A stretch of 64,000 nt of DNA from Candidatus Pacearchaeota archaeon (GTDB lineage: Archaea; Nanobdellota; Nanobdellia; Pacearchaeales; GW2011-AR1): NCBI GenBank assembly GCA_041649045.1, contig JBAZNV010000002.1:50336-114335 (forward strand), in the 5' to 3' direction. Positions 1-14,189 of the stretch are shown piece after piece. The position numbers were made by a program, and so were the translations under genes. Under the pieces are notes generated by a model. The model searched no databases. It was not told the DNA's origin and saw only the letters and a program-made list of their open reading frames with translations. Positions within the stretch are counted from its first letter, which is position 1, and each line of letters begins with the position of its first letter.

Positions 1-2244
1 TATCCTGCAGGATTTGACTTGAAAAACGAAAGATATCAGTCCATCGCAAAATCGATTTGTGGGATGGCAAATCAAAAATGTACAGTTGTATACAAACCAA
101 AATTTACAGGTGGATGTGAAATAGAATATAATAAAGATTGTCTTAGTGAGGAATTCGGCCAGAAAATGAACGATTTTTGTCGGGGGCTCGGCGATTGCGG
201 TGGAGAAGTAAATATTTTGGGAGAATACTCTGAGAATTATAAAATTACAAAATCTCCAAAACTAAGTCAATCATGGATAGCCAAATTAAAGGGATTAGCA
301 ACGCCCATCCAGGGCCAAATTGCAGAAGTAGAAAATTATGCAAAATATTTAGAAGCAGCAGGAGTAATCAAAACGCAGAATGAAGTAGAAAATTATAACG
401 TTGACGAAGACCTTATGAAATTAGGAACTGGAGTTGCGGGAATTGGCTATGCGATGGGAGTAGTCGCGGTCGCTTCTTATTATGGCGTGGGGCTATCAAC
501 CCTAACATTAGAAGGCTTGGGCACAGCATCTGTCTGGCAATCTTCATTGGGATCAACACTCGCACCATTTTCTGGTGCTGCAATAGGCGCAGGGATAGGA
601 ATGATAGCAGGAATGTATCTGGCAAAAGTGTTAAAACTTGCACCAATGGGTTCAATCTTAATGTCAATAGGAGGTGGAATCGTTGGCGGAGTTTTGGGCT
701 ATGAGATGGTGTTGCAAACAACATTAAATCCAATTTTCTTTTGGGTCGGCGTTGCATTGATTGTTTTTTCTCTTTTTTTCGGAAGCAACGACTGCAAACC
801 AAAAATCGTTGAATTTGAATGCAAACCATGGCAGCCGCCAAAAGGGGGAAGCAACTGCGAAGAGTGCAACGGCGACTCGCTTAAACCATGTTCCGAATAT
901 AGGTGTAGTAGTCTGGGTGCAGCCTGTGAATTAATAAATAAAGGGACAGCAGAAGAACTTTGTATAGATAAAAATCCGGATGATACAACTCCGCCAACAA
1001 TCACTCCCCAATACGGGGTAATTTCGGAAAACGAAAAATACAATCAAATTACTGATAAAGGTTTCAAAATTTCTTCATCAACGAGCGAATGCATAGATGC
1101 TTATACAGATTTGGAATTCGGAATCCAAACTAATGAACCAGCACAATGTAAGTTTGACCTTCAAACTAAAAATTTTGAAGACATGGAATTTGATATTGGA
1201 GGGAATAATTTCTTATATAATCACACAACTATATTCACTCTTCCGGACCCAAGTCATGGGCAAAGCCAAGGGGGAAACTGGACAGGCGAACTTGATCTTT
1301 ATATAAAATGTCAGGATACTCACGGACACGAAAATCCGGATTTTTACACCATAAACCTATGCGTGAAAGAAGGTCCCGATAAAACACCGCCAAGAATAAA
1401 ATCCTTAAACCCGGGAAACAACGAACTAATTAGTTTCGATAAAACAGAGACAAGTTCACAAATAATTACTAATGAACTTTCAGAATGCAGGTGGGATATT
1501 GCAGACAAGGACTACTCTCTTATGTCAAACCAAATGATTTGTGACAAAGATTTATTATCGCCATCTTCGACGCTTGGGTATATGTGCAGTACAGCCTTGG
1601 CGTTAGCATCAAGCGAAAATATTTTCTATGTAAGATGCATAGATCAGCCATGGTTAAATGGGACAGGGAATGCGAATACACAAAGCTTTCTATATACTTT
1701 AAAAAAACCCGGGAACAAAATTGCGATTGATGAAGTATTGCCAAATGAAGACTTCAAAAGTTCGACAACATTTTCCTCAATTGAATTACAAGTGAAAACT
1801 TCGGGTGGCGGGATTAGGCATATATGTTCATATTCATTTTCTGGCTATGAAAAAACAATCGAATTTTTTGAAACAGGAGAGTCAAATATCCATAAACAGC
1901 CGCTTAATGTAAGATCAAGTACAAACAAAATTTTTATAGAATGCACGGACGAAACAGGAGATTATGCACGTTCCGAAACAGAATTTAAAATTAACTTTGA
2001 CAGTTCATCGCCTCAAATTTCAAGAGTATGGAGAGGGGAGAATACCCTTAATTTTATTACAAATGAAAAAGCAGAATGTAGTTATTCAGAAAAAAGTTGC
2101 CTCATGAATTCAAATGAAAAGACAACTCAGTTAAGCGAAACTCATAAAATCGAAATTTCGACAGGCAAAAATTATTATATTAAATGCACAGATGAATTCG
2201 GAAATACGCCGACAGGATGTTCGTTGATAATTAATCCCGTCTAA
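1..2244 (+). CDS. Giant Cys-rich secreted/membrane surface protein, paralog A (5' partial; frame open to window start)
   Basis: The reading frame is open from nt 1, and the listed start is TTG at 19, so the true start is probably upstream. It has a central Gly/Ala-rich hydrophobic segment followed by the Cys module CKPWQPPKGGSNCEECNGDSLKPCSEYRCSSLG. It contains the motifs LGDCGGEVNILGEY and FGIQTNEPAQCKFD, which recur in ORF 3007..6912. Stretches at 190-204, 891-920 and 1120-1160 are conserved at DNA level with 4641-4655, 5492-5521 and 5740-5780. Confidence 0.55.
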   Translation, partial: YPAGFDLKNERYQSIAKSICGMANQKCTVVYKPKFTGGCEIEYNKDCLSEEFGQKMNDFCRGLGDCGGEVNILGEYSENYKITKSPKLSQSWIAKLKGLATPIQGQIAEVENYAKYLEAAGVIKTQNEVENYNVDEDLMKLGTGVAGIGYAMGVVAVASYYGVGLSTLTLEGLGTASVWQSSLGSTLAPFSGAAIGAGIGMIAGMYLAKVLKLAPMGSILMSIGGGIVGGVLGYEMVLQTTLNPIFFWVGVALIVFSLFFGSNDCKPKIVEFECKPWQPPKGGSNCEECNGDSLKPCSEYRCSSLGAACELINKGTAEELCIDKNPDDTTPPTITPQYGVISENEKYNQITDKGFKISSSTSECIDAYTDLEFGIQTNEPAQCKFDLQTKNFEDMEFDIGGNNFLYNHTTIFTLPDPSHGQSQGGNWTGELDLYIKCQDTHGHENPDFYTINLCVKEGPDKTPPRIKSLNPGNNELISFDKTETSSQIITNELSECRWDIADKDYSLMSNQMICDKDLLSPSSTLGYMCSTALALASSENIFYVRCIDQPWLNGTGNANTQSFLYTLKKPGNKIAIDEVLPNEDFKSSTTFSSIELQVKTSGGGIRHICSYSFSGYEKTIEFFETGESNIHKQPLNVRSSTNKIFIECTDETGDYARSETEFKINFDSSSPQISRVWRGENTLNFITNEKAECSYSEKSCLMNSNEKTTQLSETHKIEISTGKNYYIKCTDEFGNTPTGCSLIINPV

Positions 2245-2276
2245 ATATTTATAAATAAAGCATGGTTGAAATAAAT

Positions 2277-2588
2277 ATGGCGAAAAAGGGGCAGATCACG
2301 ATTTTTATTATATTGGCGATTTTAATCGTTTCCGCCATCCTCGTTTTCTTTTTATACGTAAGACCAACATTTATTTCATCAGGCAACAAATTAGATTTCG
2401 AAAATTGCGTTCAGCAAACTGTAGAAAAATCAATTTTAAAACTTGAAAAAAATGCCGGATTCGTTAACTCAGAATTTACTTACAATTATAAGAGCGAGGA
2501 ATTTACGTATCTTTGTTATACTAACGAATACTATAAAACATGTACAATACAGCAACCTTTTTTAAAACAACATTTCAGCAACAAATAG
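2277..2588 (+). CDS. Type IV pilin-like protein (class III signal peptide), N-terminal part; probably one gene with 2540..3010 if T6 at 2558-2563 is really T7
   Basis: The N-terminus is MAKKG|QITIFIILAILIVSAILVFF: a short basic leader, Gly at -1 and Gln at +1, then a hydrophobic helix, as in archaeal EppA-type prepilins. The ORF ends 25 nt after a T6 run. Inserting one T fuses it in frame to the next ORF, giving ...QQPFFKTTFQQQIEKD... Confidence 0.45.
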   Translation: MAKKGQITIFIILAILIVSAILVFFLYVRPTFISSGNKLDFENCVQQTVEKSILKLEKNAGFVNSEFTYNYKSEEFTYLCYTNEYYKTCTIQQPFLKQHFSNK

Positions 2589-3010
2589 AAAAAGATGTGA
2601 CGCAAGAAATAAATCTTTGCTATGAAAATTCTTTGCAAGATTTAAAAGACAGAGGTTATTCAGTAACATCAGGTAAATTGAATTATTCGATATTAATTAA
2701 CCCCAGTGTCGTTAATGTGAATATACAGTCTCCTACGACAGTTGGCTCAAACAAATTTTCAAGGTTTAATGTACAAATAGCCTCGCCTTTATACGAAATG
2801 CTTATGATATCGACAGTGATTCTTCAGTATGAAACATTTTACGGAGACGCCGATGTGGACTCAATTATGTCAATCTACCAGGATTATTATATTGAAAAAA
2901 TAAAAAGAGACGACGGGACCACAATCTATATTTTAAATAGTAAATCTTTTGAAAATAAATTTCAATTCGCAAGCAAAAGTTTGACGTGGCCTGCAGGATA
3001 TGTCGGATGA
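2540..3010 (+). CDS. C-terminal part of the pilin-like protein (separate frame; likely joined to 2277..2588 by a homopolymer frameshift); stop overlaps start of next gene (ATGA)
   Basis: It has no signal peptide of its own. It overlaps the upstream ORF by 49 nt in a different frame. Its stop TGA at 3008-3010 overlaps the ATG at 3007 of the giant protein, which suggests translational coupling. Confidence 0.4.
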   Translation: MYNTATFFKTTFQQQIEKDVTQEINLCYENSLQDLKDRGYSVTSGKLNYSILINPSVVNVNIQSPTTVGSNKFSRFNVQIASPLYEMLMISTVILQYETFYGDADVDSIMSIYQDYYIEKIKRDDGTTIYILNSKSFENKFQFASKSLTWPAGYVG

Positions 3011-6000
3011 AGAAAAAATTTGTTACAAGTTTTGAACTAACTATTTTGCTTTTTTCAACTTTTGCTTTTTCATTTTTAATTTATTCTGCAGACAATGTTT
3101 CCGCAGATACATCTTTGTCAGAACCAACAAGTTGTTGCGAAAAAACAAAGGATGGCGCTTTTTGCCTGAATACTAACGAAGATGATTGTGCGGCAAACTA
3201 CAAAATCTCTCAAACTTCATGCGAAACAACATCATATTGCAAACTTGGAACCTGTTATGATTCAGACGAAGGAATATGTATGGAGAACACGCCCCAGAAC
3301 ATTTGTGTTTCAAGTGGAGGCACATGGGATGAACGAGAATTAGCCGAAGTCCCACAGTGTCAACCCGGATGTTGTATTATTGCAGATCAGGCAGCATTCG
3401 TTTCGTTAGTCAGATGCAAGAAACTTTCAAATTTTTTCGGCGTGGAAAATAATTTTAAGAAGGATATAAATTCAGAAATCCAATGCATTGCGACAGCTCA
3501 ATCGCAGGATATGGGCGCTTGTGTTTATGAAAAAGATTACGAAAAAATTTGCAAATTTACAACGAGAGCTGAATGCAGCGCGCCAGAAACCATCGAAAGT
3601 GTGAATTCATCATCTTCGGGAAAGAAATTCTATAAAGATTATTTATGTTCGGCCGAAGAATTAAATACGATTTGCGCACGACAAACTTCGACAATATGTT
3701 ATGGAGGGAAGGTTTACTGGGTAGATTCATGTGGCAACAGGGAGAATGTATACTCATCAAATAAAGATAAGAGTTGGAATAGAGGAAGAATAGCCGAGCC
3801 CGATACAATCTGCTCCCCAAATTCAGGGACAAACAAAAACTGTGGAAATTGTGATTATTTTCTTGGAACAAGATGTGCAGAATGGGATGGCTCAACAGGA
3901 AAACCATCAGGGAGTGAATATTATTGTAAAAAAACAGAATGTGTAGATAGAAACGGCGATAAGAAATTAAATGGAGAAAGTTGGTGTGTTTACGATGGAG
4001 AAGTCGGGAATGGCTTGGACTCAGTTGGTTCAAGATATTTTAGAGAAATTTGTGTTGACGGCCAAGTGAAAGTTGAGCCATGCGCAGAGTATCGAAACGA
4101 GATTTGCCTTGAAGGTTCAATAAAAACATCCGAAGGAGATTATTCAACAAGCGCGTGCAGAGTAAACAGATGGCAAGATTGCATATTACAAGATGAGCAA
4201 GAAGATTGTCTGAATATAGATAAAAGAGATTGCTTATGGCTTCCCTCTATAACAGGAATTATCCTTGGTTCTGCGAAATCCGATTCTTCAAAGCAAACCG
4301 GTTTTTCAAACCCAACAGCAGGAGAGACAGTCTTTTCAAACCCAACAGCGACAGGCAACGTAATTTCGCCGATTACAGGAGAAATTGCATGGGGCGGGAC
4401 AGAAAAAGAAGATGAAAAAACAATGACAACAAACCCTGATGGGATTTGTGTTCCAAACTATCCCCCCGGATTAAAATTCTGGGAAGGAACAATAAATCAA
4501 CAAACTTGTGCCCAGGCAAGCGCAAAATGTATAATTAAATATGAAAAAGGAATTCTTGATGGAAGTTGGGAGTGTATAGAAAATTGTGAATGCGAAGACG
4601 AAGACTGGGCCTTGGACGTAAATCGGGTTTGTGCAGCTCTCGGCGATTGCGGTGGATACGTAAATTATTTAGGAAAATATACGGATGATGGATATGAATG
4701 GAAATCTGACAATGACAAAAAAGAATTTTCTCCAAACAATATAAATAAAATTAGCGGAGGCTTCACGGGGATGGTTGCAGGATTTATCGATAAAATAATT
4801 ATAACTGGGAATACACTCGCCCAAACACCAACCCCTGTTTCAGGAATTCAGGTAGCCGAAGGAATCGCTGCAAGGTCATCAACACTAATTACAAAAGAAG
4901 CTGTGCAGGTCGAAGTCGTAAAATTTGCAGAAATGGGGCCATTTTCATCCATGCCAGCCAGAGAAACAATCCTCATCGCAAAAGATACCCCCATCACCCT
5001 GTCCGCTAACGGCGGAACATTCGTTTCAGGAGATAAAGTTTATTCTTTAACTAATGCTCAAATCGAAACTGTGCGGGGAGCAGGAGGTGTTGGGCAGCAA
5101 ACAAGTAAACACTTTCTTTCAGGTAAATTAGGTTTGGAAGCGGGGGGGCTTCCTGATGCTCTTGCAACGGGTATTCAGTGGGCAGCGGTTGCATACGGAG
5201 CGGGTTATTTAATTGGAAGTCTATTTGGGATGAGCAAACAAAATACCCAATCTCTTTCAACAGCAATGGCAGCCGGTTCTTTCACATGGCAAAGTCTGGC
5301 TACATATAAAGCCGTAAATCTCGGATGGTTCAGTGCAAATCCATTTTTAACAGGGTTGGGCGTAGGCGCCATTGTTTTCATAGCAATGTATAAAAAATAC
5401 GAAACAAAAACAGTTTCATTTGATTGCTTGCCATACCAAGCTCCTTCTGGCGGAAACGATTGCGAAAAATGCAACGATCCAACTCTCCCATGTTCCGAAT
5501 ACAGATGTAAATCACTCGGTCAGAATTGCGAACTCGTAAATATCGGGACTAAAGAAGAAAAATGTGTAAACATTAATCCGCGAGACGTGAATTCGCCGGT
5601 GATAAAACCAAACACAGAAGAACTAACAGATGGCCATAAATATACAAATATAAAAACATCTCCTCCTGGCCCGGGATTCAGTATAATATCAACCAATAAT
5701 CAAGACGGATGTTTGCAGGCATTTACACCATTAAAGTTTGGGATTCAAACTAACGAACCAGCACAATGCAAGATAGATTTTAATCACACAACAAAATTCG
5801 ATGACATGATTTCATTTATGGGCGGGAGCAATTTATATTCCTACAATCATACCGAACAGTTTTCACTTCCAGGAGCAAAATTATTCGAAAATTCATCGTT
5901 GATACTTCAAAATGGAAAAGACATGACTTTTTTCATAAGATGCAAAGATAAAAACGGGAACGAGAATTCAGCAGAGTACGCAGTAAATCTATGTGTTGAC

Positions 6001-6912
6001 CCAAGCCCCGATACAACAGCTCCCCAAATAAAAGCAACGTCAATTGAAAACAATGGATGTATTGCAGAAAATTACGATTCCGTGGATGTAGAATTTTACG
6101 TCAACGAACCTGCCGATTGCAAATGGGACTTTCAGGATACAAGTTACGAAAACATGGGAAATGAAATGACATGCTCGAATGAACTATATCAGGTAAATGC
6201 AAACTACTTGTTTACATGCAAGACAGAATTAAGTGGCATAGCACGAGACGGAACCAATTTCTACGTCAGATGCCAAGACCAACCCGAAAGCGACATTAAT
6301 GATAGAATAACAAATAAGGAAAGTTTCGTATTTTCCCTCAGAGGCAGTACAGAATTAAAATTAAGTTATCTGATGCCAAACAGCACGCTTTCCGGATCAG
6401 TAAATCCCGCTCCAATAGAATTGTACGCCGAGACCGTTTTTGGCTGCAATAACGGGCAATCAATCTGCTACTATTCGACAACAGGAGACGAAGACGATTA
6501 TATAATGTTTTACGATACAAACAATGAAGATGGGATCAGCACCCAAAGACAGGATTTAGCTTCAGGCGACCACAAATACTATATTCGATGTATCGATGCA
6601 GGGGGGAATGTTGTGGAAGACATGATTAGATTTAATCTTGATATAGACACAAGTGCCCCAACAATAACGAGAATTTACGAAGAAAATAAAAATTTGAAAA
6701 TAATCACAGTAAGAAGTAGCGAGTGCGCTTATAGCTTCAACAACTGTGATTTTAGCTTTGAAGAAGGAGTCGAAATGCCATACGCAAATTCAACAATCCA
6801 CGTCGCAGAATGGAACAAAGATAAAACATATTATATAAAATGCAGGGACGAATTTAAAAATGAAGATGCAGATTGTTCGGCAATCGTAAAACCGAGCGAT
6901 AATTTTTTATAA
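3007..6912 (+). CDS. Giant Cys-rich secreted/membrane surface protein, paralog B (1301 aa from Met at 3007)
   Basis: It has a signal peptide MKKKFVTSFELTILLFSTFAFSFLIYSA and a Cys-dense N-terminal third. It carries LGDCGGYVNYLGKY, a Gly/Ala-rich hydrophobic block, and then CLPYQAPSGGNDCEKCNDPTLPCSEYRCKSLG. Beta-rich modules follow, each seeded by NEPAQCKID / NEPADCKWD. It is paralogous to the ORF at 1..2244. Confidence 0.6.
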   Translation: MKKKFVTSFELTILLFSTFAFSFLIYSADNVSADTSLSEPTSCCEKTKDGAFCLNTNEDDCAANYKISQTSCETTSYCKLGTCYDSDEGICMENTPQNICVSSGGTWDERELAEVPQCQPGCCIIADQAAFVSLVRCKKLSNFFGVENNFKKDINSEIQCIATAQSQDMGACVYEKDYEKICKFTTRAECSAPETIESVNSSSSGKKFYKDYLCSAEELNTICARQTSTICYGGKVYWVDSCGNRENVYSSNKDKSWNRGRIAEPDTICSPNSGTNKNCGNCDYFLGTRCAEWDGSTGKPSGSEYYCKKTECVDRNGDKKLNGESWCVYDGEVGNGLDSVGSRYFREICVDGQVKVEPCAEYRNEICLEGSIKTSEGDYSTSACRVNRWQDCILQDEQEDCLNIDKRDCLWLPSITGIILGSAKSDSSKQTGFSNPTAGETVFSNPTATGNVISPITGEIAWGGTEKEDEKTMTTNPDGICVPNYPPGLKFWEGTINQQTCAQASAKCIIKYEKGILDGSWECIENCECEDEDWALDVNRVCAALGDCGGYVNYLGKYTDDGYEWKSDNDKKEFSPNNINKISGGFTGMVAGFIDKIIITGNTLAQTPTPVSGIQVAEGIAARSSTLITKEAVQVEVVKFAEMGPFSSMPARETILIAKDTPITLSANGGTFVSGDKVYSLTNAQIETVRGAGGVGQQTSKHFLSGKLGLEAGGLPDALATGIQWAAVAYGAGYLIGSLFGMSKQNTQSLSTAMAAGSFTWQSLATYKAVNLGWFSANPFLTGLGVGAIVFIAMYKKYETKTVSFDCLPYQAPSGGNDCEKCNDPTLPCSEYRCKSLGQNCELVNIGTKEEKCVNINPRDVNSPVIKPNTEELTDGHKYTNIKTSPPGPGFSIISTNNQDGCLQAFTPLKFGIQTNEPAQCKIDFNHTTKFDDMISFMGGSNLYSYNHTEQFSLPGAKLFENSSLILQNGKDMTFFIRCKDKNGNENSAEYAVNLCVDPSPDTTAPQIKATSIENNGCIAENYDSVDVEFYVNEPADCKWDFQDTSYENMGNEMTCSNELYQVNANYLFTCKTELSGIARDGTNFYVRCQDQPESDINDRITNKESFVFSLRGSTELKLSYLMPNSTLSGSVNPAPIELYAETVFGCNNGQSICYYSTTGDEDDYIMFYDTNNEDGISTQRQDLASGDHKYYIRCIDAGGNVVEDMIRFNLDIDTSAPTITRIYEENKNLKIITVRSSECAYSFNNCDFSFEEGVEMPYANSTIHVAEWNKDKTYYIKCRDEFKNEDADCSAIVKPSDNFL

Positions 6913-6913
6913 A

Positions 6914-7402
6914 ATGAAAAAAAAAGCACAAGAATCCATTGGGATGTCATTCGGCGTAATTTTTGCAATTTTTTTAATAATTATTTTTTTGCTTGTAGCT
7001 TTCTTCACGATAAAACATTTTTTAGACATAGAAAAAACTTCAAAAGTTGGTTTATTTTATCGTGATTTTCAGGAATCCGTGGATTCAGCCTTTATCAGTC
7101 AATCAACAGAATTTAATTTTGAAATTAATCTTCCTCCAAAGATAGAAAAAATTTGTTTTGCAAATCTTTCAGCCAAAATAACTGGCAATCAGGCAGATTA
7201 TAAGGAACTGGAAAATTATGATATTTATGAAGCGAATGTTTTTTTAATCCCATCGCAATTTGCGGAAAGCATGGAATACAAATTAATCAATCATCTAAAC
7301 ATTACAAAAATAATTGAAAACAAAAATCCGTATTGTATTCCCGTCTCTCAAAATATATTAATAAAAAAAGACTTTTACGACAGGTTGGTTAGTGTAGAAT
7401 AA
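6914..7402 (+). CDS. Pilin-like small secreted protein (class III-like signal peptide)
   Basis: The N-terminus is MKKKAQESIG|MSFGVIFAIFLIIIFLLVAFF. It starts 2 nt after the giant gene's stop codon. Confidence 0.4.
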   Translation: MKKKAQESIGMSFGVIFAIFLIIIFLLVAFFTIKHFLDIEKTSKVGLFYRDFQESVDSAFISQSTEFNFEINLPPKIEKICFANLSAKITGNQADYKELENYDIYEANVFLIPSQFAESMEYKLINHLNITKIIENKNPYCIPVSQNILIKKDFYDRLVSVE

Positions 7403-7431: not shown

Positions 7432-8361
7432 ATGAAAAGAGGTGAGTTTAATTTTGTCTGGCTCTTCGCAATAGTTGTGGGCGGATTGATTTTATTTTTA
7501 GCTGTGTATGGCGCCACAAAAATAGGAGACACCAAAAAATATCAGACAGACAGTGAGATAGCAAAACAAATTTCAATTTTAACTGACCCAATGCAGGCAG
7601 GTTTTGCCGAAGGAAGTTTCAGCAAAATGACTTTCAAGCAAGAGATAAAAATAAAAAATCTTTGTTCAGTCGGAAATTTTGGAGAAAATGAAATTTCGGT
7701 TTCAACAAAAACAAACAACAAATGGAATCAGTTCGGAGCAGGAACAATAATACCAAATAAATATATTTTTTCCGCGGAATTAAACGAAGGAAAAGAATTT
7801 TACATTACTTCAAAACCATTTAATTTTCCTTATGAAGTAAGCGACATGATATTTTTGACTTCAAAAGAATATTGTTTCTCTAATTCTCCTGATGAAATAT
7901 CCGAAGAGATAAAAGAACTAAATATCCCAAATATAAAAATAGAAAATTGTTCTGGTTCAGAAATAAAAGTTTGTTTCGGCTCATCGGCAAACTGCGACAT
8001 AGTAATTTATGGTACATGTTTATCAAACTGCGATTCTGTTTACGAGGAAGGTGTTGTAGAAAAAAAAGAAGAAATAATAAAATACGTAGACAATTTATTA
8101 TTGGCAGCAATTTTTTCAGATAAAACGGTTTACGATTGCAATATCAATAGACTTTTGCAAAGAACATCTTCAATTGCAGAATTATATAGCGAAAAGGCAG
8201 ATATCTCAAATGCAAGAAATTGCAACACCAATCTCAAAAGCGACTTGTTATTTTGGAAAGATTTCACTGTGAATTCAACTTCAGACGAGATTATTTCCCT
8301 TAATATTTTATCAAAAAGCTTACAAATTAAAAATGAAAGGGAATTATGTAAATTATGGTAA
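7432..8361 (+). CDS. Pilin-like secreted protein (class III signal peptide)
   Basis: The N-terminus is MKRG|EFNFVWLFAIVVGGLILFLAVYG, a classic basic-Gly leader followed by a hydrophobic helix. Confidence 0.45.
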   Translation: MKRGEFNFVWLFAIVVGGLILFLAVYGATKIGDTKKYQTDSEIAKQISILTDPMQAGFAEGSFSKMTFKQEIKIKNLCSVGNFGENEISVSTKTNNKWNQFGAGTIIPNKYIFSAELNEGKEFYITSKPFNFPYEVSDMIFLTSKEYCFSNSPDEISEEIKELNIPNIKIENCSGSEIKVCFGSSANCDIVIYGTCLSNCDSVYEEGVVEKKEEIIKYVDNLLLAAIFSDKTVYDCNINRLLQRTSSIAELYSEKADISNARNCNTNLKSDLLFWKDFTVNSTSDEIISLNILSKSLQIKNERELCKLW

Positions 8362-8855
8362 GAGCACAAATGAAAATTCAGCAAATGGCGTTTATGATTT
8401 TGGCGGTTTTTTTATTTTTTGTTCTGGTTGGTTTATTTTTTTTAGCTATTCAATTTCGGGACATAAATAAAAATGCAGATAGGATGCAGACAGAACAGGC
8501 AATATCATCATTAAAAGTAATCGCGGACATGGCCGAGTTATCTTATGATTCAACAGACACATTAACAATAGACGAAGATAAATTAAAGATAATGTCAACC
8601 AAATTTTCTGAAAAATATAAAAACTTCTGGCCAGTTGCCTCAATCAAAATTTACATAATTTACCCATCGTTCAACAAGACAATCAAATGCCCAGAAACGA
8701 ACTGCAACTATTATGAGATTTTAGACAACGGACAAAAAAACATAAAAGAATATTCCACTTTCATTTCTATATGTAGCAAAATAAATAATTTCGGGGTTTA
8801 TGATAAATGCGGAATAGGAAAAATAGTCGTAGGAGTCAAAATAAATGAAAAATAA
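8355..8855 (+). CDS. Pilin-like small secreted protein
   Basis: The N-terminus is MVRAQMKIQQMAFMILAVFLFFVLVGLFF. It overlaps the previous gene by 7 nt, consistent with an operon. Confidence 0.4.
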   Translation: MVRAQMKIQQMAFMILAVFLFFVLVGLFFLAIQFRDINKNADRMQTEQAISSLKVIADMAELSYDSTDTLTIDEDKLKIMSTKFSEKYKNFWPVASIKIYIIYPSFNKTIKCPETNCNYYEILDNGQKNIKEYSTFISICSKINNFGVYDKCGIGKIVVGVKINEK

Positions 8856-9330
8856 TCACAAAGCCCAGCAGGAAATGGTCGGTTTTGTCTTGATAGTCAT
8901 CTTGGTAATTGTAGGAGTAATGGTTTTTTTAATCCTTTCATTAAAATCTCCCGAAGAACAATCCAGCTCAAATGTTGATAATATGCTCGGAGCGATAATG
9001 AAAATAACGACAGAATGTGCCATTGTTTTCGAACCCCAATTCGAAGATTTGCATGATTTATTTGAGAGTTGTTACGCAGGAAAAAAATGTGCGAATCTAA
9101 ACATCGACACCTGCGAATACCTTAATAAAACGCTCCAGAACGTTTTTGCCGATATTATAAAAACCGAAAGCACAATAGAATCATATCAGTTTGACTTTTT
9201 AATTAAAGAAGGAGATAGTTTACTTGAGATTAAAGAGGGAAATTGTTCGGGAGAATTTTCTTCAGCACAAAGAAATCTTGGAAATTCTGCGAATTTGGTT
9301 GTTAGATTAAAGATTTGTAAATCAGATTAA
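8845..9330 (+). CDS. Pilin-like small secreted protein
   Basis: The N-terminus is MKNNHKAQQEMVGFVLIVILVIVGVMVFLILSL. It overlaps the previous gene by 11 nt. Confidence 0.4.
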   Translation: MKNNHKAQQEMVGFVLIVILVIVGVMVFLILSLKSPEEQSSSNVDNMLGAIMKITTECAIVFEPQFEDLHDLFESCYAGKKCANLNIDTCEYLNKTLQNVFADIIKTESTIESYQFDFLIKEGDSLLEIKEGNCSGEFSSAQRNLGNSANLVVRLKICKSD

Positions 9331-9683
9331 ATATTAATAATTATTTGCAAACTATCGACTGAAAGCACGGGCCTCAACGATTCTCTTTTCCCCCTTTTTT
9401 CCGAAATGAATTCTAAAAATCCAAATCGCTCAAGAGACAAAACGTCTTCTCTGACAGACTTAAAGTCCCTTCCAAGAATTTTTGCAAGAGCATAAATAGA
9501 ACAAGGATTTTCTTTTTTTAAAATATATAATATTCTTGATTTTTCATTGCTTAATAAGCTTCGCAACATTTTCACATCAGAAAAATCATGATCAGTCGAT
9601 TTCCCTATAAATTTTGAGACGAAGTTTTCCTTATTTGCATTTACTTCAACGTATCTAATTTTGGTTTTTCTTATTTGTGCCAT
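9327..9683 (-). CDS. Winged-helix (ArsR/MarR-like) transcriptional regulator
   Basis: The HTH-like segment is SRILYILKKENPCSIYALAKILGRDFKSVREDV. It is transcribed divergently from the major surface protein gene. Confidence 0.45.
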   Translation of the reverse strand: MAQIRKTKIRYVEVNANKENFVSKFIGKSTDHDFSDVKMLRSLLSNEKSRILYILKKENPCSIYALAKILGRDFKSVREDVLSLERFGFLEFISEKRGKRESLRPVLSVDSLQIIINI

Positions 9684-10078: not shown

Positions 10079-12259
10079 ATGAATAATATATTTAGAAAAG
10101 CTATAACAGTTTTAAGTAGTGTTGCTATGGTAGGTGCTACAATAGGTGCGGCTGCTGCTGCTTCCTATCCAGACCCTTTCGTAGGAAGTACCGCTGTTGT
10201 TTATGGTGCCAATGCTGCTCCTTCTGATTTCTCCGCTGCTACAAACATAGTTGCTAATTTGAACTCAGAAAATGCTGGTTCAGTTTCGCTAACTGGTGGC
10301 GAAGGAGTAACTGAAGATCAAATTCCTCTTGGAGGAAGTATCGTTTCAGGAAAAATTCCTGCCACAATTACAGATGCAAAAGTTTCAGGTCTTCTTGATA
10401 CGAAGATTAACTGGGACGATGGAGATGGAACAGGAGCTCAGGACTACAATATACAGGAACAAATTATCCTTACTGCAACAGGCATCCAACTGAATACTAC
10501 TTTAGATGATAATGAGTATGCAGAAAAGGTTGCTTTAACAAATGATAAAGCTATAGAATACAGATATGTATTTGACGATGCTTTTAATTCAACATTTGTA
10601 GATGCAGATGCAGACACTCTTTACTTAGATCTTTTAGGAAAGAGATACGAAGTTAGTGCTATGACCGCTTCAAGTCTTACAGTAACGACTTCCGAAGAAG
10701 TTTCTCTTGCAATCGGTGAGAGCTACACTTACAAAGGAAAGACATTTACTGTAGACGATGTTTACAGCGATAAGGCACAGGTTAATGGAGAACTTATATC
10801 TACAAGTTCCTCGAAAAAAATCGATGGAATGCGAGTTTATGTTTCTTCGGTAGGTTACCACTCTAACTCTCCAGAATTAAGTAAAGTAATTTTGAAGATT
10901 GGAGAAGATATTAGTAAAACCTATTCCAGTGGAGAAGAATACGTTGGAGAAGACCCAGATGACCCAGAATGGGTTTGGACTTGGTCAAATCCAGGCGTTG
11001 CTGCAGGATACATAGGTGTTAAGTATAACTATAAACAAACAAGAGATACAGATGATGTTGTCTACGCTGGAGGGAGTTTTATCTTTCCAGAAAATTATGC
11101 TGAAGTAAAATTCGAAGGTCTAACAGACGTAGATTATAAAGACTATAAAGTCTATTTTGATCTAACAGAAGATCTTTGGAATAGTACTGACTTGACTTCT
11201 ACAGCTACTGTTCAAGATGCCCCTGTTTTAATCATCGAAGCGCTAAGTGGCGAGAAAGATGCTATTAAAATATCTGGTAATGCAGATGTTGGTGGAGGAA
11301 CGACAGTAAATATCGAAACAAATAAGATTTATCTTAGATGGGCGGTAAATCAATCCGCTACAGAATCGACTGAAGACGAAGTAGGTGTTGGGGTAGATAA
11401 TTTTGGTGGACTTGAACTCTTTTACAGCGATGTAAATGGAGATGTTTCATCATCCATAAAACCAAGGTTTGGTGCACGTTACAATTCAACTGCAGTAGCA
11501 GGAACTATATCTGAAGTAGATTTGGGAGATTTAATCGTTGGAGATACAGAAGTTCAAATTTTAGCTACAGTTGCTGATAGTGATTTGAATTTGACTTTCA
11601 TCGATGACGGTGCTGCTAACTCAATCCAGGTAGATGTGGGAGGTGTAAACTTAACACACGCTACTGGCTCTATGAAATGGTTAGGTGGGAACACTGAAAC
11701 CACAAGCAAAGAAATTGGAGAATCTACAGATATTAATGTTACAGCAGGAGGAGTACTAACCTCTATCGGGACCTATGATAATGATGTTATGACTTATAAC
11801 GGGCTTATCATAAAAACACCCGAAGCAAACGCTGACGATGATCAGGTTATAATCAGTGTTCCAAGCGACAGAGTATACGGTATAGTATCGGTACTCGCTG
11901 GTGGAAGTGCTGTTGACGGCGAAACAGGAGCTTTAGTAGTTAAGGACTCTGAAACTTCAAAAATAACCGGTAAAAACTTAATCGTTGTAGGTGGTTCAGC
12001 TATAAATGCTGTTGCTGCTGATTTATTGGGTTCTGCTTATGCAGGTGAAGCTTTCGCAGCTCAAACTGGCGTTGATGCAGGTAAATTCTTAATCCAGTCC
12101 TTTAATAGGAATGGGAAGACGGCTCTGCTTGTAGCTGGTTATAATGCTGCTGATACAGAAAAGGCCTCGCAATACTTGCTTAACAATGCAGTTGATACAA
12201 CTGTTGGGAAGAAGTATGTAGGAACTTCTGCTACTGAAGCTACTCTTGTAGTTCAATAA
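10079..12259 (+). CDS. Major secreted surface protein, putative S-layer protein
   Basis: It has a Sec signal peptide, MNNIFRKAITVLSSVAMVGATIGAAAAAS, and is Thr/Ser/Gly/Val/Asp-rich with no TM anchor. It has a strong SD and a long leader. Its codon usage shifts to GC-richer, Ala/Gly-rich codons relative to its neighbours, as expected for a highly expressed gene. A poly-T terminator follows. Confidence 0.5.
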   Translation: MNNIFRKAITVLSSVAMVGATIGAAAAASYPDPFVGSTAVVYGANAAPSDFSAATNIVANLNSENAGSVSLTGGEGVTEDQIPLGGSIVSGKIPATITDAKVSGLLDTKINWDDGDGTGAQDYNIQEQIILTATGIQLNTTLDDNEYAEKVALTNDKAIEYRYVFDDAFNSTFVDADADTLYLDLLGKRYEVSAMTASSLTVTTSEEVSLAIGESYTYKGKTFTVDDVYSDKAQVNGELISTSSSKKIDGMRVYVSSVGYHSNSPELSKVILKIGEDISKTYSSGEEYVGEDPDDPEWVWTWSNPGVAAGYIGVKYNYKQTRDTDDVVYAGGSFIFPENYAEVKFEGLTDVDYKDYKVYFDLTEDLWNSTDLTSTATVQDAPVLIIEALSGEKDAIKISGNADVGGGTTVNIETNKIYLRWAVNQSATESTEDEVGVGVDNFGGLELFYSDVNGDVSSSIKPRFGARYNSTAVAGTISEVDLGDLIVGDTEVQILATVADSDLNLTFIDDGAANSIQVDVGGVNLTHATGSMKWLGGNTETTSKEIGESTDINVTAGGVLTSIGTYDNDVMTYNGLIIKTPEANADDDQVIISVPSDRVYGIVSVLAGGSAVDGETGALVVKDSETSKITGKNLIVVGGSAINAVAADLLGSAYAGEAFAAQTGVDAGKFLIQSFNRNGKTALLVAGYNAADTEKASQYLLNNAVDTTVGKKYVGTSATEATLVVQ

Positions 12260-12329: not shown

Positions 12330-12899
12330 ATGTTTTTTAAAATAATAATGATTAGAAAAATAAAAAATCAAAATGATATTAAAAAAGCCAAAAGAAGAAA
12401 CCAAATAATACTTGGGATAATTTTAATTTTTATATTGGTTGGATCAATGCTTCTGGTTGATAAAGCAGGGGATTCCAAAGACGAAAGCAAGACAACAGAA
12501 AATGGGGTGGAGTTTTATAATATAAATGATGTTTGGCAAACACAAATCGGCCAACAGGTTTTCGCGTTTTCTTATTTGCCTTCAGAATTAGATATTGAGG
12601 CAAAGGGAGTATTTTCAATTGCAGATTATTATAGCAAGCCTATCTATTTCAACGACCTGAATAATGAGGGAGCGATAGAAATATTAATGAATATCGGAAA
12701 TTTTATTCAACGATATCAGGAAGCCTGTGAAACAGAAAATTGTGAAAAAAACTTGCCAACAAAAACCTGTGAAGACATTTTTTTTATTTTCAAAGAAGGA
12801 GAGAATTCGTCAGTCTATAAAAAAGATAACTGTGTTTATATTACAGGGGATTCAAAAAAGGGAGCCGATGCATTCCTATATAAAGCTTTAAATATTTAA
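12330..12899 (+). CDS. N-terminally anchored secreted protein (paralog pair with 12916..13614)
   Basis: A basic N-terminus is followed by the TM segment IILGIILIFILVGSMLLV. The C-terminal block ...EGENSSVYKKDNCVYITG resembles ...KGNESSVVQSPKNPYCYTIT in the next ORF. Confidence 0.4.
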   Translation: MFFKIIMIRKIKNQNDIKKAKRRNQIILGIILIFILVGSMLLVDKAGDSKDESKTTENGVEFYNINDVWQTQIGQQVFAFSYLPSELDIEAKGVFSIADYYSKPIYFNDLNNEGAIEILMNIGNFIQRYQEACETENCEKNLPTKTCEDIFFIFKEGENSSVYKKDNCVYITGDSKKGADAFLYKALNI

Positions 12900-12915
12900 T
12901 TTTACAACTATCAAA

Positions 12916-13614
12916 ATGGCAAAAAAGACAAAATCCAAAGAAAAGAATGACCAAAGGGATAATGATAGAACCGTAAAAAAATCAATTATAAAAAAAGAGA
13001 ATCGTCAACTCGCGTGGTTTATTGCAATAGTAATAGTCGGGTTTATTATTTTTTTTGGAATATATTTGTATCTTGAAAAATCAAAAGAGCCTGAAAAATT
13101 TAATTATATCGGGGTAGATTGGACAGTGGAACCCTATGAAGATTTTACAACGTATCATGCAAGATTCCAGTCTTTTGCTCACGAGAATTTAACATATAAT
13201 TTATATCTTAGAAATGACCCAAGAGAAAACAATGTTTCGGTTGATGGTAATTTGACCTATTTTAAATATGGAGGAATCCTTGCTTTTTCTCCAGAGGTTG
13301 ACGAGTGTCGAGAAGATGTCCCGATAGCGACGGTAGCTTTTGCAAGTTTTTTACAATCGGTCGTCGGGATGAGAGAAGTGATTCCTGGGACAACGGACTT
13401 TGAAGTTTACCAAGAAACTGGGAAAGTGTTTACAGATTGTTCAATTTCGAATAGAGTTGTTTTTATAATACAAAAGGGGAATGAATCCTCGGTCGTACAA
13501 TCTCCAAAGAATCCATATTGTTACACGATAACAATCAAAGATTGTGAAGATGTTCTCCCAATAGAAAAATTCATAATAGAAACAATGCGAGAACGAAATA
13601 ATAATTTAGAATAA
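12916..13614 (+). CDS. N-terminally anchored secreted protein (paralog of 12330..12899)
   Basis: A Lys-rich N-terminus is followed by the TM segment LAWFIAIVIVGFIIFFGIYLYL. It shares a Cys-containing C-terminal motif with the previous ORF. Confidence 0.4.
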   Translation: MAKKTKSKEKNDQRDNDRTVKKSIIKKENRQLAWFIAIVIVGFIIFFGIYLYLEKSKEPEKFNYIGVDWTVEPYEDFTTYHARFQSFAHENLTYNLYLRNDPRENNVSVDGNLTYFKYGGILAFSPEVDECREDVPIATVAFASFLQSVVGMREVIPGTTDFEVYQETGKVFTDCSISNRVVFIIQKGNESSVVQSPKNPYCYTITIKDCEDVLPIEKFIIETMRERNNNLE

Positions 13615-13616
13615 TC

Positions 13617-14156
13617 TTATTTTTTCTTTTCTTTAAATTCATTTCTTATATTTAATAAAAATTTTATATCAGAATAAATCGGAACAGAATTAATCCCAAA
13701 AAGTTTTGTAACAAAAAACCAAATGGCAACTACAAAAACTATTGAAACAAGGTGCCACAAAATCCAATGAATTACATTAAAATAGAAGCTGTTTGCTATT
13801 GCTATTAAAAAAACTATTCTTGAATAATTTAAAAATAATAAAATAGCCGAAGATACAATAAGCGCCAGCATTCTTTTTTTTGGAGAAATATCATTCGTTG
13901 AAAATATAAGTAAAAATAACAGAAAAAAAGCAGAACCCGCAACACAAGCAGGTACGATTTCGATATTAAAATTTGCCATCTTGATTACATTATCGATAAT
14001 AAAAACATTCGTGAACAAGCCAACAGTTTTTGAAACCAGAAAAAGAGTTGTGGGCATAAGAATCTTATAAAAAATATACAAATTCCCAGCACCAAGAAGA
14101 AGAATAAAAAAGTATCTGGCAAACATTCCTATTATTTTTTTAGACTGATAATTCAT
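13617..14156 (-). CDS. Small polytopic membrane protein, archaeosortase/exosortase-like candidate
   Basis: It has 5-6 predicted TM helices. It contains a conserved-looking Cys (EIVPACVAGSAF) and an Arg in an N-x-x-R context (FLNYSRIVF). It sits directly beside a surface protein with a C-terminal TM+basic anchor. Confidence 0.3.
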   Translation of the reverse strand: MNYQSKKIIGMFARYFFILLLGAGNLYIFYKILMPTTLFLVSKTVGLFTNVFIIDNVIKMANFNIEIVPACVAGSAFFLLFLLIFSTNDISPKKRMLALIVSSAILLFLNYSRIVFLIAIANSFYFNVIHWILWHLVSIVFVVAIWFFVTKLFGINSVPIYSDIKFLLNIRNEFKEKKK

Positions 14157-14189
14157 TAAGATTTATAAGAAACGATATTTAAAAACTTA

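What the first reader, a model, noticed from the sequence alone, without database searches (positions are those of the whole stretch)
1..6912. Two paralogous giant Cys-rich surface proteins sharing nucleotide-level conserved modules
ORFs 1..2244 and 3007..6912 share three blocks, in the same order. The first is LGDCGG[EY]VN.LG[EK]Y. The second is a Gly/Ala-rich hydrophobic, possibly membrane-embedded, segment. The third is C.P[WY]Q.P.GG..CE.CN...L.PCSEYRC.SLG..CEL.N, followed by beta-rich units nucleated by FGIQTNEPAQCK. Several of these blocks are also conserved at DNA level: ggcgattgcggtgga at 190 and 4641, and tgttccgaata...tg.a..c...ggt at 891 and 5492. That points to recent duplication or gene conversion. 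I do not recognise a characterised family with this architecture. It could be a host-attachment adhesin family in an episymbiotic archaeon.
Basis: partly seen in the sequence, partly recalled or inferred. Interest (0 to 1): 0.65.

Follow-up and report, generated by a model that had tools for sequence, protein, structure and literature searches.

The report
Paired archaeal surface proteins with pilin-like partners
Two old duplicate genes in a tiny symbiotic archaeon (Pacearchaeota) encode large, cysteine-rich, membrane-anchored surface proteins of an undescribed family; each is paired with a pilin-like partner in a conserved cell-envelope operon that may build the structure these cells use to contact other cells.

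Summary
ORF A (1..2244, cut by the window edge; 1162 aa in full) and ORF B (3007..6912, 1301 aa) are paralogues along their whole length (32% identity, E 3e-104).

The duplication is ancient, not recent. Synonymous sites are near saturation (z 2.1). In 8 of 9 genomes each copy is closer to the same-position copy elsewhere than to its neighbour.

What was duplicated is a cassette: a ~250-aa protein with a class III (prepilin-like) signal, then the giant. Four more pilin-like genes follow. Next come an S-layer gene, pacearchaeosortase and its PACE-CTERM target. This order recurs in at least 80 Pace-/Woesearchaeota loci.

Each giant fuses two modules that are separate genes in other genomes:
- A Sec-exported, disulfide-rich head of about 550 aa, with no match in the structure libraries available (PDB, viral models).
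- A stalk of Gly/Ala-rich helices, a 7-Cys module and four Ig-like domains with conserved Cys pairs and N-glycosylation sequons.

No Pfam, NCBIfam or PDB family matches. The Cys module defines a family of about 1,400 clusters.

The most likely function is a fixed surface complex for adhesion or S-layer contact. This is inferred, not shown, and the membrane topology is unsettled.

The parts
1..2244 (+). Giant A, 3' 747 codons. The full gene encodes 1162 aa; the rest lies upstream of the window.
   Evidence: Paralogue of B along the full length.
187..204 (+). LGDCGG block of A. The 18 nt are identical to 4639-4656.
421..780 (+). A: four Gly/Ala-rich uncharged hydrophobic segments (aa 141-260). 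Putative membrane anchor.
   Evidence: hydropathy; aligned with the B helices.
784..990 (+). A: 7-Cys module (C.PWQ.P.GG..CE.CN...PCSEYRC.SLG..CEL.N...C).
   Evidence: All seven Cys are invariant in 95 sequences.
991..2241 (+). A: four Ig-like domains. Boundaries are set by homology to B.
2262..3010 (+). p249b: 249-aa partner with a class III (prepilin-like) signal, KKG|QITIFIILAI. In the window it is split by a 1-nt deletion in a T run at about 2573. Its stop overlaps the start of B (ATGA).
3007..6912 (+). Giant B, 1301 aa (identical to P0001, NCBI locus tag WC548_02955).
3007..3105 (+). B: Sec-type signal peptide. It has a K-rich n-region, a hydrophobic core and a VSA-like end.
3106..4446 (+). 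B: Cys-rich head (35 Cys, mostly beta) plus a disordered S/T/G/N linker (aa 421-487).
   Evidence: AF2 pLDDT 86, pTM 0.69. No fold match in PDB or BFVD. Sequons are depleted, observed/expected 0.43.
4447..4725 (+). B: alpha/beta LGDCGG module (G, D and C invariant). It is the C-terminal end of the separately encoded head protein in genomes where the gene is split.
4726..5148 (+). B: variable middle. It holds a weakly hydrophobic stretch (aa 589-607), a disordered part and a small beta domain.
   Evidence: The fission point in L087 falls at aa ~597.
5149..5388 (+). B: three long uncharged Gly/Ala-zipper helices (aa 722-746, 751-773, 781-801). Putative membrane anchor; the last helix is the most hydrophobic and is conserved across the family.
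5389..5595 (+). B: 7-Cys module.
5596..6894 (+). B: four Ig-like beta-sandwich domains. Each has an invariant Cys pair. N-X-S/T sequons are conserved at N933, N954, N1132 and N1268.
6914..7402 (+). p162: protein with a class III-like signal.
7432..8361 (+). p309: protein with a class III-like signal (KRG|EFNFVW).
8355..8855 (+). p166: protein with a class III-like signal.
8845..9330 (+). p161: protein with a class III-like signal (KA|QQEMVGF; the Q is invariant in 29 of 29).
9327..9683 (-). HVO_A0114-family small protein. Its position between the operon and the S-layer gene is conserved.
10079..12259 (+). S-layer-like protein (PF05124 S_layer_C). It has no Cys and no TM anchor.
12330..13614 (+). 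p189 and p232: two conserved single-pass membrane proteins downstream of the S-layer gene.
13617..15923 (-). Pacearchaeosortase (13617-14156) and its PACE-CTERM putative S-layer target (14190-15923).
   Evidence: NF033505 6.9e-40; NF033506 6.8e-94.

Best explanation
A and B are ancient tandem paralogues of an uncharacterised cell-envelope protein family of Pace-/Woesearchaeota.

Each giant is a fusion of two modules.
- A head of about 550 aa. It is Sec-exported, disulfide-rich and of a fold with no match in the libraries searched. It ends in the LGDCGG module.
- A membrane-anchored stalk. It consists of Gly/Ala-zipper helices, a 7-Cys module and four disulfide-type Ig-like domains with conserved N-glycosylation sites.

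Each giant gene is translationally coupled to a ~250-aa protein with a prepilin-like (class III) N-terminus. Four more such proteins end the operon.

Inferred mechanism: the hydrophobic N-terminal helices of the pilin-like subunits and the Gly-zipper helices of the giants associate in the cell's own membrane. Together they form a fixed multi-subunit surface complex. Its head and Ig stalk project into or through the S-layer and mediate contact, either with another cell (the host) or with the S-layer itself.

Shown here: the homology, the architecture, the operon and its synteny, the age of the duplication, and the split-gene forms.

Inferred only: assembly, both ectodomains lying outside the cell, and the adhesive or anchoring role.
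For: Paralogy and its age:
- Paralogy is shown. The duplication is ancient.

Operon and synteny:
- Genes are packed tightly: ATGA overlaps and 1-29-nt spacers.
- The order p249-giant-p249-giant-p162-p309-p166-p161-(HVO_A0114)-S-layer-p189-p232 recurs in dozens of loci across Pace-, Woese- and Nanoarchaeota.
- A p249 gene ends within 200 nt upstream of 67 of 91 giant starts.

Pilin-like partners:
- The [KR][KR][GAS]|Q motif plus a hydrophobic helix is conserved in all five small-protein families. The Q is invariant in three of them.
- These families resemble each other only in that N-terminal segment, as pilins do.

Structure:
- The AF2 models are confident, pLDDT 86 for both.
- The C-terminal part matches tandem Ig/FN3 ectodomains, E 8e-15.

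Natural gene fission:
- In L087, L088 and L089 the head is a 500-608-aa secreted protein without any anchor.
- The stalk is a separate 747-956-aa protein with its own signal peptide.
- 92 of 96 complete new representative hits are such stalk-only proteins.

Evidence that the C-terminal part is extracellular:
- Each Ig domain has an invariant Cys pair.
- Cys content is 5.1%, against about 1% in cytoplasmic proteins.
- Four sequons are conserved in position, and N and the +2 S/T are coupled in 95-98% of cases.
- Amino-acid composition scores above all 10 cytoplasmic controls.

Envelope context:
- An S_layer_C protein, pacearchaeosortase and a PACE-CTERM protein lie alongside.
- Pacearchaeota were reported to be enriched in the host-attached size fraction (He et al., 10.1101/2020.05.14.094862).
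Against: - No experiment and no expression data exist for these genes.
- Three helices lie between an exported region and the C-terminal part. If all three span the membrane, the Ig string is cytoplasmic.
- K/R residues are richer on the C-side of the last helix than on the N-side (2.1 vs 0.7).
- Sequons are neutral in the C-terminal part (observed/expected 1.05) but depleted in the head (0.43).
- No pilin Pfam or NCBIfam model hits any of the 87 small proteins scanned.
- No class III peptidase, pilus ATPase or platform gene was found among the genes examined in the window, nor among the genes called in six related loci.
- PCNA is also syntenic with the locus, so conserved gene order alone is weak evidence of a functional link to the S-layer gene.
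Confidence: 0.45

Rival explanations
1. S-layer pillar or anchor. The Ig string spans the pseudo-periplasm and holds the anchor-less S_layer_C lattice protein to the membrane. This is functionally like SlaB of Sulfolobales.
For: - The adjacent S-layer protein has no TM segment or sorting signal.
- The locus is linked to S-layer genes in most loci.
- The stalk is well conserved, and its last Ig domain is the most conserved part (71%).
- The family is near-universal in this lineage, with at least 539 loci.
Against: - The S-layer gene is a separate transcription unit, lying beyond a divergent gene.
- Synteny also includes PCNA, which is unrelated.
- There is no sequence or fold similarity to SlaB or to any PDB S-layer entry.
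- This reading does not explain why six pilin-like proteins and a 550-aa head are needed.
Confidence: 0.2
2. Tip or priming complex of a type IV-like filament. The four small pilin-like proteins act as minor pilins and the giants as tip adhesins, analogous to bacterial FimU-PilVWX-PilY1. The ATPase, platform and major pilin would be encoded elsewhere.
For: - The operon logic is the same: several pilin-like genes plus a non-pilin protein of 1,100-1,300 aa.
- Archaeal type IV filament loci often carry large Ig-rich or PilY-like adhesins and Cys-rich components (Makarova 2016, PMC4858521; 2026 preprint 10.64898/2026.04.22.720090).
Against: - The giants carry internal hydrophobic helices that would hold them in the membrane.
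- No ATPase, platform or peptidase gene lies near the locus in any locus examined.
- He et al. state that type IV pilus components are missing from DPANN genomes.
- There is no similarity to PilY1.
Confidence: 0.15
3. Contact-dependent conduit. The Gly-zipper helices form a channel, or insert into the partner's membrane, to move metabolites between symbiont and host.
For: - GxxxG-type Gly/Ala-rich uncharged helices are conserved and predicted with good confidence.
- Their membrane parity is odd if they sit in the cell's own membrane.
- Pacearchaeota have minimal metabolism and attach strongly to hosts.
Against: - This rests purely on analogy. The helices are the least conserved structured part (43% identity).
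- There is no similarity to known pore formers or fusogens in PDB or BFVD.
Confidence: 0.08
4. Transmembrane receptor. A variable exported head faces outwards, and a conserved cytoplasmic Cys-module and Ig string faces inwards, with the Cys residues binding metal.
For: - There are three helices, so membrane parity is odd.
- K/R is enriched after the last helix.
- The N-terminal region varies between architectures while the C-terminal part is constant.
- Sequons are neutral in the C-terminal part.
Against: - One invariant Cys pair per Ig domain is a disulfide pattern, not a metal site.
- N-X-S/T sites are conserved and coupled.
- Composition is unlike that of cytoplasmic proteins.
- Paralogue A has four hydrophobic segments.
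Confidence: 0.12

Closest known systems
Bacterial type IV pilus minor-pilin/PilY1 tip module (fimU-pilVWXY1E-type operons). The comparison rests on my own knowledge of the system.
   Same: One operon holds several small proteins with a prepilin-type N-terminus plus a large non-pilin surface protein of about 1,100-1,300 aa with a Sec signal.
   Different: - No sequence or fold similarity to PilY1.
- The giants have internal hydrophobic helices and an Ig-like stalk.
- No assembly ATPase, platform or peptidase lies nearby.
- There are two or three giant cassettes per locus.
Archaeal type IV filament loci with large Ig-rich or PilY-like adhesins and Cys-rich components (Makarova et al. 2016, PMC4858521; preprint 10.64898/2026.04.22.720090).
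   Same: Proteins with class III signals are encoded next to large secreted or membrane proteins rich in Ig folds and conserved cysteines, sometimes beside S-layer-like genes.
   Different: - Those loci are defined by an ATPase and a TadC/FlaJ platform, which are absent here.
- None of the Pfam or NCBIfam families from those systems hits these proteins.
SlaB, the S-layer stalk of Sulfolobales. The comparison rests on my own knowledge of the system.
   Same: A string of beta-sandwich domains held in the membrane and encoded next to the lattice protein.
   Different: - SlaB has one C-terminal TM helix and a coiled coil, and no Cys-rich head.
- No detectable homology: the PDB profile search gave 0 hits.
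Fibrillar adhesins and Ig-repeat surface proteins. The PDB matches were PTP-delta, Sidekick, contactin and the GhpA grappling-hook fragments.
   Same: Tandem Ig/FN3-like domains (Foldseek E 8e-15 to 1e-9).
   Different: - Only about 10% sequence identity, so this is generic fold similarity.
- There is a fixed number of four non-identical domains rather than expanding repeats.
- The protein is anchored by mid-protein helices.

Membership tests
Type IV pilin / class III signal peptide proteins (for the six small partners) | A short positively charged N-terminus, [KR]-[GAS] before the cleavage site, then a hydrophobic helix of about 20 residues | tested here: met
   The motif K-[KR]-[GA]-Q-[VIL]-[TA]-I-F is conserved. 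The Q is invariant in 65/65, 75/75 and 29/29 sequences. It fits the FlaFind-type pattern as I recall it.
Type IV pilin / class III signal peptide proteins (for the six small partners) | A match to a curated pilin or archaellin family model | tested here: not met
   No pilin model hit any of the 87 members at E<=0.05.
Type IV pilin / class III signal peptide proteins (for the six small partners) | A cognate prepilin peptidase, assembly ATPase and platform protein in the locus or genome | tested here: not met
   None was found among the genes examined in the 64-kb window, nor among the genes called in six related loci. Whole genomes could not be searched.
Type IV pilin / class III signal peptide proteins (for the six small partners) | Cleavage at the G/A|Q site and assembly into a filament | not testable with these tools
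   This needs N-terminal proteomics or imaging.
Ig-like (E-set / bacterial Ig) domains, for the C-terminal repeats | A beta-sandwich fold matching solved Ig/FN3 domains | tested here: met
   AF2 pLDDT exceeds 90 over this region. Foldseek gives E 8e-15 to tandem Ig/FN3 ectodomains.
Ig-like (E-set / bacterial Ig) domains, for the C-terminal repeats | A Pfam Big_13 (PF19077) score above the gathering threshold | tested here: not met
   The score is 15.0 bits against a cut-off of 27 for B. Some homologues carry precomputed PF19077 hits.
PilY1 / PilC tip adhesins | A C-terminal beta-propeller, with or without an N-terminal vWA domain | tested here: not met
   No Pfam hit. The models show a head of unknown fold and an Ig string.
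Archaeal S-layer proteins (S_layer_N / S_layer_C, PACE-CTERM) | A match to the family models | tested here: not met
   The giants have no hit. The neighbouring genes 10079-12259 and 14190-15923 do hit.
Any solved-structure family, for the Cys-rich head | A significant sequence-profile or fold match | tested here: not met

The most novel reading that the evidence does not exclude
The operon encodes a previously undescribed surface organelle specific to Pace-/Woesearchaeota, built without a type IV pilus motor. It would contain two or three head-plus-Ig-stalk proteins and six pilin-like subunits held together by their hydrophobic helices. It would form the physical bridge to the host cell, possibly including a Gly-zipper channel.
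Probability: 0.15. Interest if true: 0.85.

Novelty: new variant of a known kind. Interest (0 to 1): 0.55.

Why it matters
Pacearchaeota and Woesearchaeota are abundant, uncultivated and metabolically minimal archaea. How they attach to and draw on other cells is unknown.

This locus is near-universal in that lineage: at least 539 loci were confirmed among the stretches examined in GTDB species genomes. It is tightly organised, encodes their most cysteine-rich exported proteins, and lies beside the S-layer genes.

That gives concrete targets for metaproteomics, cryo-ET and structural work:
- a head domain with no match in the structure libraries searched;
- a family of about 1,400 clusters that has no Pfam model;
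- six proteins with conserved prepilin-type signals and no pilus motor nearby.

It also corrects the annotation. The giants are fusions of two proteins that are separate in other genomes, and the tandem copies are old paralogues.

Tried and rejected
- Family scans: Pfam and NCBIfam scans of both giants and all neighbours returned only sub-threshold noise for the giants and the small proteins.
- Sequence profile against PDB: 0 hits.
- Foldseek of the C-terminal model: only generic Ig strings.
- Foldseek of the head model against PDB and BFVD: nothing significant.
- Recent duplication or gene conversion: rejected on codon-level statistics and on orthologue clustering.
- Constraint on the DNA itself at the LGDCGG block: rejected, because orthologues use varied codons there.
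- The stretch at B aa 589-607 as a TM helix: rejected. AF2 leaves it disordered, and in the split genes it is the charged C-terminal end of a secreted protein.
- Hydropathy counting and the positive-inside rule: these gave contradictory membrane parity.
- Overall sequon enrichment: uninformative for the C-terminal part. Positional conservation of sequons was informative.
- Pilus ATPase, platform or peptidase among the window genes examined: none found.
- Literature: five searches found no description of this family. Castelle et al. 2021 (PMC8204110) list 51 mostly unknown families shared by Pace- and Woesearchaeota. Whether this family is among them was not verified.

Full report
OBSERVATION

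The window carries ORF A (1..2244, + strand, open at the 5' edge) and ORF B (ATG at 3007, stop at 6912).
- BLASTP gives 32% identity over 826 columns, E 3e-104.
- B is 100% identical to an NCBI protein of a Candidatus Pacearchaeota MAG, locus tag WC548_02955.
- An independent Logan assembly of the same organism (L001) supplies the missing 5' part. A is 1162 aa in full, and its N-terminal Cys-rich half is also homologous to that of B (32%, E 1e-58).
The DNA identities are real: a 15-mer at 190 and 4642, an 11-mer at 889 and 5491, and a longest exact run of 18 nt.

AGE OF THE DUPLICATION

The duplication is ancient.
- Aligned codons are 49% identical. At identical residues the same codon is used in 51% of cases, against 45% expected from codon usage (z = 2.1).
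- Some homologues score 1.6 times higher against A than against B, and many show the reverse.
- In 8 of 9 loci with two complete copies, the upstream copy is closest to another genome's upstream copy, and the downstream copy to another downstream copy. L002 is the exception.
- Orthologues encode LGDCGG with varied codons. The 18-nt identity is peculiar to this genome, so a very short conversion tract cannot be excluded.

WHAT WAS DUPLICATED

The duplicated unit is a cassette, not a single gene.
- Each giant is preceded by a ~249-aa gene whose stop overlaps the giant's start (ATGA). The two 249-aa proteins are themselves paralogues (35% identity, E 2e-46).
- In the window the middle one is split by a 1-nt deletion in a T run at about 2573. 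The NCBI record annotates only the 156-aa remainder.
- Downstream, with spacers of -11 to +29 nt, come four further small genes (162, 309, 166 and 161 aa).
- All six small proteins begin with K/R-K/R-G/A-Q/E followed by a hydrophobic helix. Across orthologues this motif is strongly conserved, and the Q is invariant in three families.
- The five families resemble one another only in this N-terminal segment: hhalign gives up to 96% probability there and none once it is removed. That is the pattern of type IV pilins.
- No curated pilin model matches any of the 87 members scanned.

CONTEXT

- The order PCNA, p249, giant, p249, giant, p162, p309, p166, p161, HVO_A0114 (opposite strand), S_layer_C protein, p189, p232 recurs across Pace-, Woese- and Nanoarchaeota loci.
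- In the window the next genes are pacearchaeosortase and its PACE-CTERM putative S-layer substrate.
- The other window genes examined are housekeeping genes. None is a pilus ATPase, platform or prepilin peptidase.

ARCHITECTURE

Two AF2 models built from 95-sequence alignments are confident: pLDDT 86.4 and 86.2. From N to C, giant B contains:
- a Sec-type signal;
- a mostly beta, 35-Cys head, followed by a disordered S/T/G/N-rich linker;
- an alpha/beta module with invariant G-D-C;
- a variable middle;
- three long uncharged Gly/Ala-rich helices;
- a module of seven invariant Cys;
- four beta-sandwich domains, each with an invariant Cys pair.

The C-terminal model matches tandem Ig/FN3 ectodomains, E 8e-15 at about 10% identity. 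The head matches nothing in PDB or BFVD. A family profile finds no PDB sequence.

GENE FISSION

An exhaustive profile search with the Cys module found 1,393 clusters at 50% identity.
- Most complete hits (92 of 96) are proteins of 700-950 aa with their own signal peptide, few Cys before the helices, and no LGDCGG module.
- In L087, L088 and L089 such a stalk-only gene sits at the position of giant B. It is preceded by a 501-608-aa gene that aligns with B residues 9-597 at 57% identity and ends, without any anchor, where B has its weakly hydrophobic 589-607 stretch.
- The giants are therefore fusions of a secreted head protein and a membrane-anchored stalk protein. The 589-607 stretch is not a transmembrane helix.

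TOPOLOGY

Topology is unsettled.
- Evidence that the Ig string lies inside the cell:
  - Three helices follow an exported region.
  - K/R is richer after the last helix (2.1 against 0.7).
- Evidence that the Ig string lies outside the cell:
  - Each Ig domain has one invariant Cys pair.
  - Cys content is 5.1%, against about 1% in cytoplasmic proteins.
  - Four sequons are conserved in position. N954 is present in 87% of sequences, and N is coupled to the +2 S/T in 95-98% of cases.
  - Composition scores above all ten cytoplasmic controls.
  - Paralogue A has four hydrophobic segments.
- I favour both ectodomains outside, at about 70-75%. That requires one helix to be non-spanning.

FUNCTION

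Function is inferred, not shown.
- Both ectodomains are conserved, 60-70% among close orthologues, and the last Ig domain is the most conserved. Only the middle is variable. This argues for a core envelope or contact complex rather than a rapidly diversifying adhesin.
- I propose a fixed membrane complex of giants and pilin-like subunits that projects into the S-layer and mediates contact.
- The rivals are an S-layer pillar, the tip complex of a type IV-like filament, a Gly-zipper conduit, and a receptor with a cytoplasmic Ig string.
- Literature context:
  - Archaeal type IV loci often include large Ig-rich or Cys-rich proteins.
  - He et al. report type IV components missing in DPANN and Pacearchaeota enriched in the host-attached size fraction.
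  - Castelle et al. describe many unknown membrane or extracellular families shared by Pace- and Woesearchaeota.
- I found no description of this family.

VERDICT

- Within the known kind of archaeal Ig-rich, pilin-associated surface systems, this is a new variant.
- Interest is moderate to good.

Noticed in passing
window 2540-2600 (about 2573): A 1-nt difference in a T run (TTT here, TTTT in the independent assembly L001) splits the 249-aa partner gene into ORFs 2262-2588 and 2540-3010. NCBI annotates only a 156-aa product. This is either an assembly error or a population variant.
   Followed up: yes
window 13617-15923 (- strand): Pacearchaeosortase (NF033505, 6.9e-40) lies next to its PACE-CTERM putative S-layer substrate (NF033506, 6.8e-94). 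So the first 16 kb of the window form a cell-envelope gene island.
   Followed up: partly
window 52270-56763 (- strand): A 1497-aa Laminin_G_3 protein carries 70 N-X-S/T sequons against 28.6 expected, and has a weak partial match to TafC fimbrial protein. It is probably a heavily glycosylated surface protein.
   Followed up: no
L087 4883-8904; L088 8131-12871; L089 7462-12421: In these genomes the B-type giant is two genes: a secreted head of 501-608 aa and a stalk of 747-956 aa with its own signal peptide. That signal peptide resembles the one on the giants.
   Followed up: yes
L002 5339-13696: The two giants in this locus are more similar to each other (summed score 1375) than to any orthologue (<=1001). 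This suggests a lineage-specific re-duplication or gene conversion, unlike the situation in the window.
   Followed up: partly
window 187-204 and 4639-4656: The 18-nt identical stretch uses a codon combination that occurs only as this genome's own A and B copies among the 27 LGDCGG copies found in the related loci. A very short conversion tract is possible.
   Followed up: partly
L011 and L020: Contigs carrying this archaeal locus are filed under a 'Pseudomonadota bacterium' MAG and a 'Patescibacteria group bacterium' MAG. They are probably mis-binned.
   Followed up: no
P0358 and P0376 (1,685-1,708 aa): These are longer family members. They have the same helices, Cys module and Ig core, but an unrelated, acidic N-terminal region of about 1,150 aa with repeated DKDG-type motifs. 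The stalk therefore carries different heads.
   Followed up: no
window 2980-3007 (C-terminus of p249b) and about 4450-4475 (giant B aa 488-496): The p249 proteins end in a conserved P[PASQ]G motif (56 of 69). The giants have C[VI]PN[FY]PPG at the start of the LGDCGG module (27 of 56). Whether the two motifs are related is unknown.
   Followed up: partly
window 3007-3105 and orthologues: The hydrophobic core of the giants' signal peptide contains a conserved E/Q (consensus KK....FE[IL]..LI.S.FAFS). This is unusual for a Sec signal and has no explanation so far.
   Followed up: no
window 9327-9683 (- strand): An HVO_A0114-family gene always sits, on the opposite strand, between the last pilin-like gene and the S-layer gene. 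It could be a regulator of the locus.
   Followed up: no
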